From a virus (lineage: Duplodnaviria > Heunggongvirae > Uroviricota > Caudoviricetes), in IMG/VR virus record IMGVR_UViG_2711768018_000004: a stretch of 9,833 bases of DNA; one strand, given 5' to 3'. The notes beneath the pieces are model-generated. The model saw nothing but the letters and a program-made list of their open reading frames with translations. It was not told the DNA's origin and made no database searches. The translations under genes were made by a program, and so were the position numbers. Positions 1,820 through 4,702 of the stretch are shown piece by piece. Within the stretch, counting starts at the first letter, position 1, and each line of letters opens with the position of its first letter.

Positions 1820-2190
1820 TGCGCCATGAGTTTATTTTACCTTATCCGCCGACGGTGAATACTTACTGGCGACGTCGTGGCAGCACATATTTTGTATCAA
1901 AAGTTGGTGAGCGTTATCGCCGTGATGTGACGCTAATTGTTCGCCAGCAGCGGCTGAAATTAAACCTGTCCGGAAGGCTGGCGATAAAGATTATTGCAGA
2001 GCCACCGGATAAGCGCCGTCGTGACCTGGACAATATCCTGAAAGCACCACTGGATGCGCTGACGCATGCCGGACTACTCATAGACGACGAGCAGTTTGAT
2101 GAAATCAATATTGTGCGCGGTCAGCTCGTTCCTGGTGGGCGACTGGGCGTGAAGATTTATGAAATCACAGGTGATAACGATGGCGCGTGA
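1819..2190 (+). CDS. rusA: Holliday junction resolvase RusA
   Basis: 123 aa. Colinear with E. coli RusA as recalled, including the hallmark [22 protein letters not shown] segment (RusA: [22 protein letters not shown]) and the C-terminal GGRL motif. ATG at 1819. Confidence 0.9.
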
Positions 2191-2566
2191 TATTCAGCAG
2201 GTTATGGAACGGTGGGGGGCTTGGGCTGCAAACACTCATGAAGATGTATCCTGGGCGTCGATCGCTGCTGGTTTTAAAGGGTTAATTCCGTCGAAAGTGA
2301 AATCACGCCCTCAGTGTTCTGATGATGATGCAATGATAATTTGTGGCTGTATGGCCCGGTTGAACAAGAAAAATCAGGATTTGCACGATTTGCTGGTGGA
2401 TTATTACGTAGGTGGAATGACTTTTATGAGTCTGGCACGGAAACATGGGTGTTCGGATACCTGTATTGGCAAGCGCCTGCAGAAAGCGGAAGGGGTTATT
2501 GATGGCATGTTGATGATGCTTGATATCCGGCTGGAGATGGACAGATACGTAGAACGAATTATGTAG
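2180..2566 (+). CDS. Q: Late-gene antitermination protein Q (QuuD / phage 82-type Q family)
   Basis: [18 protein letters not shown]...[16 protein letters not shown]...[27 protein letters not shown]...DIRLEM closely matches the recalled DLP12 QuuD-type Q protein. ATG at 2180 is preceded by AGGTGA with a 5-nt spacer. It overlaps the rusA 3' end by 11 nt. The track start at 2159 would add 7 aa without a good RBS. Confidence 0.85.
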
Positions 2567-2570
2567 GTGC

Positions 2571-2600
2571 TTGACCAGACACATTGTCCGGGGCTATATT
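2571..2600 (+). promoter_or_regulatory. Candidate late promoter pR' (sigma70-like TTGACC - 18 nt - TATATT)
   Basis: The -35 TTGACC (2571-2576) and -10 TATATT (2595-2600) begin 5 nt after the Q stop codon. Position immediately downstream of Q matches the conserved lambdoid arrangement of pR' and the Q utilisation site. Confidence 0.45.
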
Positions 2601-2661
2601 CCTCACGCGCCAGCAAAATCTGGCGTCGGGATTGGAACCCCGGATAGAGACCGCGACAGAC

Positions 2662-2686
2662 ACACGCCGCGAGCGTGTTTTTTATT
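2662..2686 (+). terminator. Intrinsic terminator candidate (possible tR' ending a short 6S-like leader RNA)
   Basis: Stem ACACGC (2662-2667) / GCGTGT (2673-2678) with loop CGCGA, followed by a T-run (TTTTTTATT). Lies about 60-80 nt downstream of the predicted start of the promoter at 2571-2600. Confidence 0.5.
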
Positions 2687-2811
2687 GTCGTATGCACGCG
2701 CACATCTGAATTATGGTGGGGCGCATGGGGGAGCTGAAAAGCTCGCCGGTCGGTTTCCCGGTAGTTCCAACCCTGTGCGTCTCACCACCCGATGATTGGA
2801 ACCTGACGGTG

Positions 2812-2840
2812 TTGACAGTTTCAGGTTTGCAGTTTACATT
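2812..2840 (+). promoter_or_regulatory. Second sigma70-like promoter candidate (TTGACA - 17 nt - TACATT)
   Basis: Consensus -35 TTGACA at 2812-2817, 17-nt spacer, -10 TACATT at 2835-2840. Lies about 200 nt upstream of the ORF6N-domain gene start. Could be its own promoter or the true pR'. Confidence 0.35.
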
Positions 2841-2873
2841 TCCCCGCGGTGCTCAAAACACCTCGAAAGCGGT

Positions 2874-2901
2874 ATCCACACCCGATAGCCATGTGGTTTT
2901 T
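2874..2901 (+). terminator. Weak hairpin plus T7 run (attenuator/terminator-like)
   Basis: CCACA (2874-2878) pairs with TGTGG (2890-2894) across an 11-nt loop, followed by TTTTTTT (2895-2901). The stem is short, so this is tentative. Confidence 0.3.
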
Positions 2902-3046
2902 TTGTGTCCAGAATTCTTGGTTTATGACCGGGTGTGCGGCTAATACAATACCAGCAATGGAAATACGCCCGCCGACTTTCGACGGTTTTGAGCGCCCGGT
3001 CACCCTCTCAAAAGGGGTAAATCAAAATATTCGAAAGGACATGTCT

Positions 3047-3610
3047 ATGAATCGCACGTCTATTGAAAAACTCCCGTCACTTACGCATAACCATCTTCCT
3101 GTCATGACAACAGAGCTGCTGGCTGATTTGTACGGAACAGAGCGCCAGCGTTTGACAAACAATTTCAATCGAAACAAAGAACGGTTTATAGAAGGTAAAC
3201 ATTTTTTCCTGATAGAAGGTGATGCGTTACGAGAGTTGAAGAACGAAAACTCTTTAAGAGTTTCTGTGAAAATTGCCCGTAACGTTCGCTCCCTCATCCT
3301 CTGGACAGAACGTGGCGCAGCCCGTCACGCCAAAATGCTCGAAACCGATCAGGCGTGGGAAGTGTTCGAAAAACTGGAAGACTGTTATTTCAACCAGAAA
3401 CAGCCACCAGCGGCACAAAACACATCTATCGAAAATGATGGATGCGCATTACTGAGCCACTTCGATAAACACGGTCAGGTTGAGTTCACGGAAAAGGTAC
3501 CCGCCGATGCGATGGTATGTACTCTGGAACGGTTTAAATTTTATCTGGAGCAACACGGGTGGATCGTTGCCCGTAAAGAGCAACTGGTGGAGCGGTTGAT
3601 GCGGTTTTAA
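3047..3610 (+). CDS. ORF6N-domain protein (Ant/KilA-N-like DNA-binding fold), function unknown; late-region cargo gene
   Basis: 187 aa from ATG 3047, with AAAGGA 7 nt upstream. Residues ~15-110 (TTELLADLYGTERQRLTNNFNRNKERFIEGKHFFLIEGDALRELKN...ILWTERGAARHAKML) follow the ORF6N-domain consensus as recalled. The C-terminal ~75 aa have no motif I recognise. An in-frame ATG at 2957 lacks an RBS. Confidence 0.7.
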   Translation: MNRTSIEKLPSLTHNHLPVMTTELLADLYGTERQRLTNNFNRNKERFIEGKHFFLIEGDALRELKNENSLRVSVKIARNVRSLILWTERGAARHAKMLETDQAWEVFEKLEDCYFNQKQPPAAQNTSIENDGCALLSHFDKHGQVEFTEKVPADAMVCTLERFKFYLEQHGWIVARKEQLVERLMRF

Positions 3611-3687
3611 AAATTTTTTCCGAAAACTTTACGATCGTAAAAAGTTGAATATCCTGTTAAGAGTGGTTACTACGCCACACAGCTTAA

Positions 3688-3711
3688 ACCCGCCGATGAG
3701 CGGGTTTTTTT
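3688..3711 (+). terminator. Intrinsic terminator downstream of the ORF6N-domain gene
   Basis: Stem ACCCGC (3688-3693) / GCGGGT (3700-3705) with loop CGATGA, followed by a 7-T run to 3711. Upstream A-run makes it potentially bidirectional. Confidence 0.7.
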
Positions 3712-3761
3712 ATACCTGAAAAACGGCACAGGACGTTAAACGTGCTGGTGGTCAGATGAGT

Positions 3762-3790
3762 TTGCAGATGTGATGACATATGGTTATTAT
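3762..3790 (+). promoter_or_regulatory. Possible promoter for the tRNA cluster (TTGCAG - 17 nt - TATTAT)
   Basis: The -35-like TTGCAG (3762-3767) and -10-like TATTAT (3785-3790) would place the transcription start a few nt before the first tRNA at 3800. Weak call; the tRNAs may simply be transcribed by readthrough from pR'. Confidence 0.25.
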
Positions 3791-3799
3791 TCTGCCTCC

Positions 3800-3876
3800 G
3801 GCCCTTTAGCTCAGTTGGTCAGAGCGAGCGACTCATAATCGCCAGGTCGCTGGTTCAAGTCCAGCAAGGGCCACCA
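3800..3876 (+). tRNA. ileZ: tRNA with anticodon CAT, most likely tRNA-Ile2 (lysidine type, ileX/ileZ-like); tRNA-Met not excluded
   Basis: Cloverleaf: acceptor GGCCCTT/AAGGGCC, anticodon loop CTCATAA, T-arm GCTGG-TTCAAGT-CCAGC, encoded CCA. Very similar to E. coli ileX as recalled. Confidence 0.85.
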
Positions 3877-3877
3877 A

Positions 3878-3954
3878 CCACCACTAGCTCATCCGGATAG
3901 AGCATCAACCTTCTAAGTTGACGGTGCGAGGTTCGAGTCCTCGGTGGTGGGCCA
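3878..3954 (+). tRNA. argN: tRNA-Arg (anticodon TCT, reads AGA)
   Basis: Acceptor CCACCAC/GTGGTGG, anticodon stem TCAAC/GTTGA with loop CTTCTAA, T-arm CGAGG-TTCGAGT-CCTCG, encoded CCA. Starts 1 nt after the previous tRNA. Confidence 0.85.
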
Positions 3955-3956
3955 GC

Positions 3957-4032
<76 letters not shown>

Positions 4033-4035
4033 TAT

Positions 4036-4110
<75 letters not shown>

Positions 4111-4237: not shown

Positions 4238-4600
4238 NNNNNNNNNNNNNNNNNNNNNNNNNNNNNNNNNNNNNNNNNNNNNNNNNNNNNNNNNNNNNNN
4301 NNNNNNNNNNNNNNNNNNNNNNNNNNNNNNNNNNNNNNNNNNNNNNNNNNNNNNNNNNNNNNNNNNNNNNNNNNNNNNNNNNNNNNNNNNNNNNNNNNNN
4401 NNNNNNNNNNNNNNNNNNNNNNNNNNNNNNNNNNNNNNNNNNNNNNNNNNNNNNNNNNNNNNNNNNNNNNNNNNNNNNNNNNNNNNNNNNNNNNNNNNNN
4501 NNNNNNNNNNNNNNNNNNNNNNNNNNNNNNNNNNNNNNNNNNNNNNNNNNNNNNNNNNNNNNNNNNNNNNNNNNNNNNNNNNNNNNNNNNNNNNNNNNNN
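4238..4600. other. Assembly gap (363 N); unresolved sequence
   Basis: Contiguous run of N. Every track ORF crossing it is an artefact of translating N as X. Confidence 0.99.
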
Positions 4601-4702
4601 ATTGGTGTGCTGGGAAGTCTGCTTCTGGGGCTTCTGACTTATCTGACAAATCTGTATTTCAAAATAAGAGAAGACAAGCGTAAGGCTGCGAGAGGTGAAT
4701 AA
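4601..4702 (+). CDS. S: Holin, phage 21 S21-type pinholin (3' fragment only; 5' part lost in the gap)
   Basis: The in-frame C-terminal 33 aa [33 protein letters not shown] match the TMD2 and C-terminus of the S21 pinholin as recalled. Stop TAA (4700-4702) overlaps the endolysin ATG (4702-4704). Confidence 0.7.

What the first reader, a model, noticed from the sequence alone, without database searches (positions are those of the whole stretch)
3047..3610. Uncharacterised ORF6N-domain gene in the late-region cargo slot between Q and the lysis cassette
In lambdoid phages the slot downstream of Q and pR' and upstream of the holin is where accessory cargo such as Shiga toxin genes is carried and expressed on induction. 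Here it holds a 187-aa protein with an N-terminal ORF6N-type DNA-binding domain and a C-terminal ~75 aa with no motif I recognise (FEKLEDCYFNQKQPP...FKFYLEQHGWIVARKEQLVERLMRF). It has its own promoter-like element (2812-2840), a ~200-nt leader and a strong terminator (3688-3711). It could act as an antirepressor-like regulator or an anti-defence or superinfection-exclusion factor, but the function is not determinable from sequence.
Basis: partly seen in the sequence, partly recalled or inferred. Interest (0 to 1): 0.5.

Follow-up and report, generated by a model that had tools for sequence, protein, structure and literature searches.

The report
Antisense-RNA-controlled prophage antirepressor gene
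The gene is a relative of a known prophage-inducing protein (Gifsy-1 AnrP), preceded by two copies of a known small-RNA control cassette, and it lies just upstream of the phage late promoter rather than in the toxin cargo slot, so it is largely ordinary.

Summary
The ORF exists as described: 3047-3610, 187 aa, with an ORF6N domain at aa 13-97 (E 8.8e-21). It is not an orphan. It matches PHROG 2379 "anti-repressor" over its full length and is 49% identical to Gifsy-1 AnrP, whose expression induces that prophage.

The "leader" holds two tandem P1-immI-type control modules. Module 1 is a promoter, an IsrK/a1b1 sRNA and a C4 antisense RNA (2571-2802). The loop of that RNA (CTTTCGA) is complementary to the gene's Shine-Dalgarno region (3031-3037). 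Loop, upstream target and SD covary through five matched sequence classes in 13 related loci, with 100% pairing and 0/500 shuffles as good.

The 1.1-kb cassette sits between a 933W-type Q and its late promoter PR' (3628-3716). It is therefore not late cargo downstream of PR'. The "gene terminator" is the PR'-proximal terminator.

The C-terminal 70 aa form a separate, shuffled ββαα domain. It also occurs fused to Rha and AntA domains and has no structural neighbour.

Verdict: a new member of a known kind. The Xcc1-type C4 variant and the double leader add modest novelty.

The parts
2159..2566 (+). Q antiterminator, 933W type, 135 aa (C-terminally shorter than the 144-aa Stx-phage Q)
   Evidence: Pfam Phage_antitermQ 2.7e-52. 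It is 78-81% identical at the aa level to Q of Stx phages over aa 5-133.
2571..2600 (+). Module 1 promoter (P_isrK): TTGACC-18-TATATT
   Evidence: Promoter scan, 10/12. It is conserved with the Gifsy-1 isrK promoter region and in 19 aligned loci. The isrK promoter was shown experimentally to drive anrP transcription in Gifsy-1.
2594..2683 (+). IsrK-like sRNA carrying the a1/b1 targets (b1 GATTGGAAC 2630-2638), ending in an intrinsic terminator (2662-2678 plus T-run)
   Evidence: Rfam isrK 77.5 bits (2607-2683) and c4-a1b1 50.1 bits (2594-2646), both above gathering score. Terminator scan.
2709..2792 (+). C4 antisense RNA no. 1 (b' GTTCCAA 2764-2770); coincides with the 'orf45' position of the Gifsy-1 locus (ATGs at 2713 and 2725)
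   Evidence: Rfam C4 71 bits. The MFE fold is -44.9 kcal/mol with a long closing stem and CACC tail. The Gifsy-1 counterpart gives the same Rfam hits.
2794..2802 (+). b2 target of module 1 (GATTGGAAC); no gene follows it here
   Evidence: It is an exact repeat of b1 and complementary to b'. b1/b'/b2 covary across loci.
2812..2840 (+).
   Evidence: Promoter scan, 10/12. The -35 is invariant and the -10 conserved in 7 diverged leaders with variable flanks.
2848..2903 (+). Predicted short a1b1 RNA no. 2: a1 loop GCTCAAAAC 2851-2859, b1 TCGAAAG 2863-2869, hairpin CCACA/TGTGG 2876-2896 plus T7 2897-2903 (IsrK analogue)
   Evidence: Complementarity to C4 no. 2. Duplex energy is -27.6 kcal/mol, with 0/500 shuffles as good. 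The hairpin pair at 2878/2894 shows a compensatory change in 5 sequences. 98% of cells are paired, with 5 covarying pairs.
2926..3009 (+). C4-like antisense RNA no. 2 (Rfam sRNA-Xcc1 family): b' CTTTCGA 2976-2982 in a hairpin loop, a' GTTTTGAGC 2985-2993 single-stranded, 3' CACCC tail
   Evidence: Rfam sRNA-Xcc1 77.4 bits against a gathering score of 53. The architecture matches the C4 model. The same leader occurs in 37 viral-contig stretches.
3007..3039 (+). Target region of C4 no. 2 in the ant mRNA: a2 candidates CTCAAAA 3007-3013 (hairpin loop) or TCAAAA 3022-3027; b2 TCGAAAG 3031-3037 overlapping the SD AAGGA 3035-3039
   Evidence: Exact complementarity. The b':b2 helix has 7 pairs, 100% paired in 13 sequences. 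Five pairs show changes on both sides, 0/500 shuffles reach the score, and slid controls give 0.
3047..3610 (+). ant gene, 187 aa: ORF6N domain (aa 13-97, nt 3083-3337), conserved helix block to aa ~116, disordered linker aa 115-131, C-terminal ββαα domain aa ~132-187 (nt 3440-3607)
   Evidence: The C-terminal domain is shared at 90% identity with a Rha-domain protein.
3628..3716 (+). 933W-type late promoter region: remnant of the Q 3' end (TTTACGATCGTAA 3628-3640), PR' with inferred start near 3662, hairpin-T7 terminator 3686-3713. This terminator also ends ant transcripts.
   Evidence: It is 85% identical to the sequence directly after Q in VT2phi_272 and BP-4795. The PR' TSS mapping comes from Sy et al. 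2020. The same segment follows ant at +21 nt in 42 of 80 related loci. Terminator scan.
3800..4110 (+). Four tRNA genes (Met-CAT type, Arg-TCT, Thr-TGT, Gly-TCC) in the true post-PR' cargo position
   Evidence: ARAGORN and Rfam tRNA. Window 3783-3954 is homologous to the tRNA block upstream of stx2 in VT2phi_272.

Best explanation
The gene encodes an AnrP/Ant-type antirepressor, a protein whose production tips the prophage from lysogeny towards lytic growth. It most likely does this by inactivating a CI-type repressor without needing RecA. Its synthesis is held in check after transcription by a P1-immI-type antisense RNA cassette.

The module's own constitutive promoter (2812-2840) makes mostly a short terminated RNA that carries the a1 and b1 sequences. 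Read-through transcripts carry a C4-like RNA (2926-3009), presumably excised by RNase P as in P1. The b' loop and a' strand of that RNA pair with a2/b2 on the ant mRNA and cover the Shine-Dalgarno sequence, blocking translation. The a1b1 sequence competes for the same a'/b' sites and so relieves the block. It can do so in cis on the precursor or in trans as the short sRNA, as IsrK does in Gifsy-1. A second, upstream IsrK-C4 module of different specificity (2571-2802) has no gene of its own here.

The whole 1.1-kb cassette is inserted at the 3' end of a 933W-type Q gene, upstream of PR'. Ant would therefore be expressed from its own promoters and from early pR read-through, not as a Q-dependent late gene.

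Shown here: the domain and family matches, the RNA family matches, the complementarity and covariation, and the position relative to PR'. Shown by others for homologues: AnrP and Phi24B Ant promote induction, IsrK pairs with the C4/orf45 region, and C4 blocks translation in P1. Inferred: repressor binding, the direction of regulation in this module, and RNase P processing.
For: Protein:
- ORF6N, E 8.8e-21.
- PHROG 2379 anti-repressor over the full length, 4.4e-85.
- 49% identity to Gifsy-1 AnrP, same 187-aa length.
- AnrP expression raises antQ-operon mRNA and induces Gifsy-1.
- Phi24B Ant (ORF6N + P22_AR_C) is needed for full pR' induction, and Phi24B-like phages carry the same IsrK-C4 leader at 94.8% identity.

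RNA elements:
- isrK, c4-a1b1, C4 and sRNA-Xcc1 all score above Rfam gathering thresholds.
- The same isrK/C4 set lies upstream of anrP in Gifsy-1 and upstream of an ORF6N ant in the P1-like phage RCS47.

Pairing:
- Exact complementarity b'/b1/b2 and a'/a1/a2.
- Five matched b1/b'/b2 sequence classes, always abutting the SD.
- b':SD helix 100% paired, 5/7 pairs with double changes, 0/500 shuffles, slid controls 0.
- a1b1:C4 98% paired.
- RNAalifold independently recovers the a1b1:a'b' helix.

Same leader, other genes: it drives Bro-N, Rha, KilA-N and ORF6N+P22_AR_C genes, all of the Ant-type repertoire.

Position.
Against: - No repressor gene is in the window, and no binding partner can be named.
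- AnrP's direct binding to a repressor was not shown in the paper read.
- The predicted b'a':TIR duplex is only -14 kcal/mol, and 67/500 shuffled targets do as well. The case for SD occlusion therefore rests on covariation, not energy.
- In Gifsy-1 the published model is translational activation through an upstream translated orf45 coupled to anrP. Here no such coupling is possible: the orf45-like frame ends at 2943, 104 nt before the ATG.
- The C-terminal domain differs from that of AnrP (~25% identity) and from P22_AR_C, so the target may differ.
Confidence: 0.65

Rival explanations
1. Late-expressed accessory cargo (a moron). The gene would be transcribed from PR' under Q control and would act on the host or on other phages, for example in anti-defence or superinfection exclusion, rather than on the phage's own switch.
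For: It lies between Q and the lysis genes. About 51 of 80 close homologues also follow a Q gene directly. Weak PADLOC hits to the candidate defence family PDC-S05 (1.4e-7) cover the ORF6N part only.
Against: - The PR' segment of 933W-type phages lies downstream of the gene at 3628-3716.
- In Gifsy-1-type loci the Q82-associated isrJ segment likewise follows the gene, and it abuts Q in phages that lack the gene.
- The same cassette also occurs in the nin region (Nil2 antA/antB), near int (Phi24B-like phages) and in a P1-like plasmid prophage. It is therefore not tied to the late operon.
- No named defence or anti-defence family matches.
Confidence: 0.1
2. A DNA-binding transcription regulator or growth modulator of the Rha/Roi/KilA kind. 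The ORF6N winged-helix domain would bind DNA directly, on phage or host targets, and the protein would not act by sequestering a repressor.
Confidence: 0.2
3. A decayed or silent remnant. The double leader would result from deletion of an upstream ant gene (Nil2-type antA-antB tandem), and the surviving gene might be non-functional.
For: Nil2 has module 1-antA-module 2-antB. In some double-leader loci, b2 of module 1 no longer matches its own b' (L068, L072).
Against: - The ORF is intact and full length, with invariant core residues.
- Module 2 retains perfect b1/b'/b2 and a1/a'/a2 matches.
- The identical arrangement recurs in more than 13 independent viral contigs and, at 70-88% identity, in others.
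- In this window b1/b'/b2 of module 1 still match.
Confidence: 0.05

Closest known systems
Gifsy-1 isrK-orf45-anrP-isrJ locus (Hershko-Shalev et al. 2016, PMC4825925)
   Same: The protein is 187 aa and 49% identical, with a 33-residue identical block. It lies directly after a Q gene. The same promoter, IsrK/a1b1 sRNA and C4-region RNA are present, and the two ATGs of 'orf45' fall at the equivalent +107 and +119. The b1:b' pairing corresponds to the IsrK:orf45 pairing proven there by compensatory mutations.
   Different: A second, Xcc1-type module is interposed here, so the orf45-like frame is not coupled to the ant start. The Q is 933W-type rather than 82-type. The downstream element is the 933W-type PR' segment rather than isrJ. 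The C-terminal domain is only ~25% identical.
Bacteriophage P1/P7 immI operon (c4 antisense RNA, icd, ant; Citron and Schuster 1990, as summarised in PMC12197685 and PMC7313666)
   Same: The antisense RNA is encoded in the leader of the ant transcript. Two short complementary elements recur upstream (a1, b1) and downstream (a2, b2). The downstream site overlaps a ribosome-binding site. Specificity classes differ by a few bases, as between P1 and P7. A P1-like phage (RCS47) has the IsrK-C4 leader in front of an ORF6N ant.
   Different: There is no icd-like coupled ORF: b2 covers the SD of ant itself. The host is a lambdoid prophage rather than a plasmid prophage. RNase P processing and Rho-dependent polarity are untested. 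Two modules lie in tandem.
sRNA-Xcc1 (Rfam RF02221), described as an integron-encoded, HrpG/HrpX-controlled trans-acting sRNA of Xanthomonas
   Same: Element 2926-3009 matches the model end to end at 77 bits. An sRNA-Xcc1 upstream of an ORF6N gene was noted, without a mechanism, in whitefly APSE phages (PMC7313666).
   Different: Here it behaves as a C4-type cis-encoded antisense RNA with matched a/b targets on an antirepressor mRNA. Rfam places it in no clan with C4, and none of the papers read makes this link.
Phi24B / Nil2 / P22-type Ant proteins (ORF6N or P22_AR_N plus P22_AR_C)
   Same: The ORF6N N-terminal half is 54-67% identical. The same RNA leaders are present. Phi24B Ant promotes induction.
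   Different: Their C-terminal domain is P22_AR_C. The window protein has an unrelated ~55-aa ββαα domain.

Membership tests
Pfam ORF6N (PF10543) domain proteins | Match to the ORF6N profile above the gathering score | tested here: met
   74.4 bits against a cut-off of 27.8, E 8.8e-21, aa 13-97, profile positions 5-86 of 86.
PHROG 2379 / AnrP-type antirepressors | Full-length similarity, including the C-terminal domain | tested here: met
   phrog_2379 covers 2-187 of the protein against 3-187 of 187, E 4.4e-85. Identity to AnrP is 49% over 184 aa, E 6e-58.
PHROG 2379 / AnrP-type antirepressors | Expression induces the resident prophage or inactivates its repressor | not testable with these tools
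   This is shown only for the homologues AnrP and Phi24B Ant.
Gifsy-1 isrK locus | IsrK sRNA with its own promoter and terminator immediately upstream, complementary to a downstream leader segment | tested here: met
   Rfam isrK 77.5 bits at 2607-2683, promoter at 2571-2600, b1/b' complementarity.
Gifsy-1 isrK locus | orf45 stop codon overlapping the anrP start (AUGA), giving translational coupling | tested here: not met
   The orf45-like frame runs 2713-2943 and ends 104 nt before ATG 3047. Module 2 lies in between.
Gifsy-1 isrK locus | isrJ sRNA downstream of the gene | tested here: not met
   No isrJ hit in the window at E<=1. The 933W-type PR' segment occupies that position.
P1 immI-type c4 antisense control | C4-family RNA encoded in the leader of the ant transcript | tested here: met
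   Rfam C4 71 bits at 2709-2792. The Xcc1-type element at 2926-3009 has the same architecture.
P1 immI-type c4 antisense control | a'/b' complementary to a1/b1 upstream and to a2/b2 downstream, with b2 at the ribosome-binding site | tested here: met
   b2 at 3031-3037 overlaps the SD at 3035-3039. Five matched covarying b1/b'/b2 classes were found.
P1 immI-type c4 antisense control | icd-like small ORF translationally coupled to ant | tested here: not met
   No ORF lies between C4 no. 2 and ATG 3047. b2 abuts the ant SD directly.
P1 immI-type c4 antisense control | RNase P processing of the precursor, and repression of translation by the mature RNA | not testable with these tools
   Only the tRNA-like closing stem and the CACC(C) tail are seen.
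Late-operon cargo (moron) downstream of PR', like stx | Location downstream of the Q-dependent late promoter and its terminator | tested here: not met
   The PR' homologue is at 3628-3716, downstream of the gene.
Known anti-phage defence proteins (PADLOC) | Match to a named defence family | tested here: not met
   Only weak hits of the ORF6N part to the candidate family PDC-S05 (1.4e-7). There is no BstA or other named system.

The most novel reading that the evidence does not exclude
The RNA family annotated as sRNA-Xcc1, which the literature treats as a virulence-linked trans-acting sRNA of Xanthomonas and Xylella, is in fact a second lineage of P1-c4-type immunity RNAs. Each copy sits in an antirepressor leader. 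Its loop is matched to the Shine-Dalgarno region of the gene and to a decoy site on a co-transcribed short sRNA, and it comes in at least five matched sequence classes (a sixth lacks an identified b2).

On this reading IsrK is the a1b1 decoy, and the 'orf45' of Gifsy-1 is the C4 RNA. Tandem modules of different specificity, as in this window, would let one prophage sense or derepress the antirepressors of co-resident prophages through short decoy RNAs acting in trans.
Probability: 0.5. Interest if true: 0.55.

Novelty: new member of a known kind. Interest (0 to 1): 0.33.

Why it matters
The gene itself adds little. It is one more AnrP/Ant-type antirepressor, and pieces of it occur in about a fifth of complete E. 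coli genomes.

Three side results are more useful.

1. The cassette lies between Q and PR' for two different Q types. Annotators should therefore not read genes after Q as late cargo by default. Such genes could give RecA-independent induction routes in Shigella and E. coli prophages, including Stx phages.
2. Three-way covariation gives direct sequence evidence that an sRNA-Xcc1-type RNA controls translation of the adjacent antirepressor. It also defines its specificity code, which predicts which prophages cross-regulate.
3. The C-terminal 70 aa are an unnamed, shuffled domain with no structural relatives. This domain is a candidate determinant of target specificity.

Tried and rejected
- **Longer ORF from GTG 2849 (253 aa) or ATG 3041.** Rejected. 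The upstream part is conserved as RNA elements, and only ATG 3047 is conserved.
- **LexA control, as for the Gifsy GfoA-type antirepressors.** No consensus box was found. The one-mismatch CTGN-type site at 2803-2818 overlaps the -35 of P2, has a GC-rich spacer and is not conserved in homologous leaders. Rejected.
- **P_isrK as the late promoter.** Rejected. The same promoter-IsrK unit follows three Q types and also occurs in nin regions and in a P1-like phage. The 933W-type PR' segment is found downstream.
- **NCBIfam.** No match.
- **Word-indexed search with the C-domain alone.** It returned only 17 fragments. The exhaustive representative search gave 11 representatives.
- **Duplex energy as evidence for SD occlusion.** Not significant on its own.
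- **Genome-contig scan.** It returned mostly distant Firmicutes ORF6N proteins, which were not informative about the leader.

Full report
**Observation**

The window is part of a lambdoid prophage. Its gene order is as follows:
- DnaB-type helicase
- RusA
- Q (2159-2566)
- the ORF in question (3047-3610)
- four tRNA genes (3800-4110)
- a masked stretch
- holin end, lysozyme, Rz/Rz1
- HNH endonuclease
- terminase
- portal

The ORF is 187 aa and carries an ORF6N domain at aa 13-97 (E 8.8e-21). The promoter-like site at 2812-2840 and the terminator at 3686-3707 are both found by the consensus scan.

**What the protein is**

The protein is not an orphan.
- It matches PHROG 2379, annotated anti-repressor, from residue 2 to 187 (4.4e-85).
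- It has thousands of relatives in Escherichia, Shigella and Salmonella. The closest is 99% identical, from Shigella sonnei.
- It is 49% identical over 184 residues to STM2616 of Gifsy-1.
- STM2616 lies directly after Q and is preceded by isrK.
- STM2616 is therefore the AnrP of Hershko-Shalev et al. 2016. That paper shows that anrP expression raises transcripts of the antQ operon and induces Gifsy-1.
- A second studied relative is the Ant of Phi24B-like Stx phages. Its ORF6N half is about 66% identical, and its knockout lowers pR' reporter induction.

**Structure and domains**

The C-terminal 70 residues are a separate module.
- A 90% identical copy is fused to a Rha domain in other prophages.
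- More distant copies are fused to ORF6N, Rha or AntA+Ash.
- Modelled alone, it folds as two strands and two helices at pLDDT 81.
- It has no Pfam match.

**The leader: two control modules**

The 480 nt between Q and the ORF hold four Rfam matches above gathering score:
- c4-a1b1 at 2594-2646
- isrK at 2607-2683
- C4 antisense RNA at 2709-2792
- sRNA-Xcc1 at 2926-3009

The first three recur in the same order upstream of anrP in Gifsy-1. They also recur upstream of an ORF6N-containing ant in the P1-like phage RCS47. The two ATGs that the Gifsy-1 paper assigns to 'orf45' (+107 and +119 from the isrK start) fall at 2713 and 2725, inside the C4 match. That paper mentions neither P1 c4, nor RNase P, nor Rfam.

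The C4 and sRNA-Xcc1 models have the same architecture: a long closing stem, inner hairpins, a single-stranded stretch and a CACCC tail. The window thus has two tandem modules of the P1 immI kind.

**Module 2, next to the gene**

This is the module that matters for the finding. Next is b1 (TCGAAAG, 2863-2869). Then come a hairpin and seven T residues (2876-2903), and then the C4-like RNA.

In that RNA, b' (CTTTCGA, 2976-2982) lies in a hairpin loop, and a' (GTTTTGAGC, 2985-2993) is single-stranded. Downstream lie the a2 candidates (3007-3013 in a hairpin loop, or 3022-3027). After them comes b2 (TCGAAAG, 3031-3037), which overlaps the Shine-Dalgarno AAGGA seven nucleotides before ATG 3047.

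**Comparative evidence for the pairing**

The same leader occurs in 37 stretches of viral contigs, in 17 sequence variants. b1, b' and b2 change together through five matched classes:

| b1 and b2 | b' |
|---|---|
| TCGAAAG | CTTTCGA |
| TCAGTAG | CTACTGA |
| CAAGTAG | CTACTTG |
| CAGAAAG | CTTTCTG |
| CCAGTAG | CTACTGG |

A further variant (L141) pairs b1 ACAAACAG with b' CTGTTTG, but no b2 lies within 75 nt of it.

On a 13-sequence alignment the b':b2 helix is 100% paired. Five of its seven pairs change on both sides. No shuffle of 500 reaches the observed score, and structures slid by 1-3 columns show no double changes except one pair at +3. The a1b1:a'b' pairing gives the same picture, and RNAalifold recovers it unprompted.

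Module 1 shows the same three-way covariation, including a compensated one-base insertion. The equivalent pairing in Gifsy-1 was proven by compensatory mutations.

Energy alone is weak evidence for the SD interaction: -14 kcal/mol, with 67 of 500 shuffles as good. The a1b1 site binds much more strongly, at -27.6 kcal/mol with 0 of 500. That fits a decoy role.

The same leader also precedes genes with Bro-N, Rha, KilA-N and ORF6N+P22_AR_C domains. It is thus a general control cassette for Ant-type genes.

**Position relative to the late promoter**

The Q protein is of the 933W type. In Stx phages VT2phi_272 and BP-4795, the sequence that directly follows Q is 85% identical to window 3628-3716. 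That sequence runs from the last 13 nt of the Q reading frame through a hairpin with seven T residues.

Sy et al. 2020 mapped the PR' start of the Sakai Stx2a phage. With the coordinate offset checked against the terminator position, it falls about 22 nt after the Q stop. This puts the window's PR' start near 3662 and the 3686-3713 terminator within its first 50 nt.

The ant cassette (about 2558-3627) is therefore inserted at the 3' end of Q, upstream of PR'. The tRNA genes are what occupy the stx-like position.

The arrangement is general. Of 80 related viral loci, about 51 have a Q gene directly upstream. In 42 of the 80, the 933W-type PR' segment lies 21 nt after the ant stop, and in 6 the isrJ segment lies 10 nt after it. 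In phages without the cassette, the isrJ-like sequence abuts an 82-type Q.

The cassette also occurs in nin regions (Nil2 antA and antB) and near int.

**Mechanism proposed**

Constitutive transcription from the module promoters gives mainly short a1b1 RNAs. Read-through gives a precursor from which the C4-like RNA is released. That RNA pairs with a2/b2 and blocks ribosome binding, which keeps Ant off in the lysogen. Excess a1b1 RNA, or heavy read-through from the early operon, relieves the block. Ant then promotes induction.

The RNA anatomy and its covariation are shown here. The biological effect of Ant rests on two homologues. Repressor binding, RNase P processing and the exact direction of control are inferred.

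**Rivals**

Three alternatives were weighed:
- a Q-dependent cargo or defence role. The position of PR', and the cassette's occurrence outside late regions, make this unlikely.
- a direct DNA-binding regulator. The fold leaves this possible.
- a decayed remnant. The intact, recurrent arrangement makes this unlikely.

**Novelty**

The gene is a new member of a known kind. Two points are not stated in the papers I could read:
- the sRNA-Xcc1-type element acts as a C4-type antisense RNA on an antirepressor Shine-Dalgarno sequence, with a readable specificity code;
- IsrK and 'orf45' correspond to the a1b1 and c4 elements of P1.

One paper noted an sRNA-Xcc1 upstream of an ORF6N gene but proposed no mechanism.

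Noticed in passing
L003 (Gifsy-1) 34131-34329; window 2594-2792: The 'orf45' of the published Gifsy-1 isrK locus coincides with an Rfam C4 antisense RNA match, and IsrK coincides with the c4-a1b1 target motif. The 2016 paper does not mention P1 c4, RNase P or Rfam. Its model of a translated orf45 and the P1 model of a processed antisense RNA have apparently never been reconciled.
   Followed up: partly
L003 33380-33515; L145 (phage CobraSix) 1201-1306: The isrJ sRNA region of Gifsy-1 is homologous to the sequence that directly abuts 82-type Q genes in Enterobacter and Klebsiella phages lacking the ant cassette. IsrJ is therefore probably the terminated PR' leader RNA of Gifsy-1, analogous to StxS of Stx phages.
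   Followed up: partly
window 3628-3640 and 2521-2566: A 13-nt remnant of the 3' end of a 933W-type Q reading frame (TTTACGATCGTAA) survives downstream of ant. The working Q is 135 aa, against 144 aa in Stx phages. This marks the cassette insertion point.
   Followed up: yes
window 3716-3782, compared with L104 2026-2374: The window lacks the ~350-nt segment that in Sp5-like Stx phages holds the StxS sRNA and the mapped tR' terminator. The hairpin-T7 at 3686-3713 is therefore the only terminator between PR' and the tRNA genes.
   Followed up: partly
window 3800-4110: Four tandem tRNA genes are present: CAT (called Met by ARAGORN; the homologous gene is annotated ileZ/tRNA-Ile in Stx phages), Arg-TCT, Thr-TGT and Gly-TCC. 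A promoter-like site lies at 3761-3790. Stx phages carry Ile-Arg-Arg at this position.
   Followed up: no
window 4238-4600: A run of 363 N masks the start of the lysis cassette. The reading frame that emerges at 4601-4702 ends ...[22 protein letters not shown], which from memory resembles the C-terminus of lambda S-type holins.
   Followed up: no
L098-L103 1-558; E. coli hits H182-H185: A Rha-domain protein of 185 aa carries a C-terminal 70 aa that are 90% identical to those of the window protein. This shows recent domain shuffling between ORF6N and Rha regulators.
   Followed up: yes
L134 10678-10895; L068 and L072 module 1: Some leaders are hybrids. In L134, b1 belongs to a different specificity class from b' and b2. 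In L068 and L072, the b2 of module 1 does not match its own b'. Recombination breakpoints thus fall inside the leaders, and short a1b1 RNAs may target the C4 RNAs of other prophages.
   Followed up: no
L094 2663-2953; L141 2085-2382; L134 10760-11415: Several loci carry two sRNA-Xcc1-type elements in tandem, rather than one C4-type plus one Xcc1-type. A published Xylella genome table lists five to seven such elements, some adjacent to isrK and C4 (PMC12189769).
   Followed up: no
window 2803-2818: A one-mismatch LexA-box-like sequence (CTGACGGTGTTGACAG) overlaps the -35 of the module 2 promoter. Its spacer is GC-rich and it is not conserved in related leaders, so it is probably a chance match.
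   Followed up: yes
P0140 (265 aa) and the 217-230-aa homologues: Some database entries for this family are N-terminally extended by translation through the C4 RNA region (MVGRAGEP...PPDDWNLTV...). These extensions are probably gene-calling artefacts.
   Followed up: no
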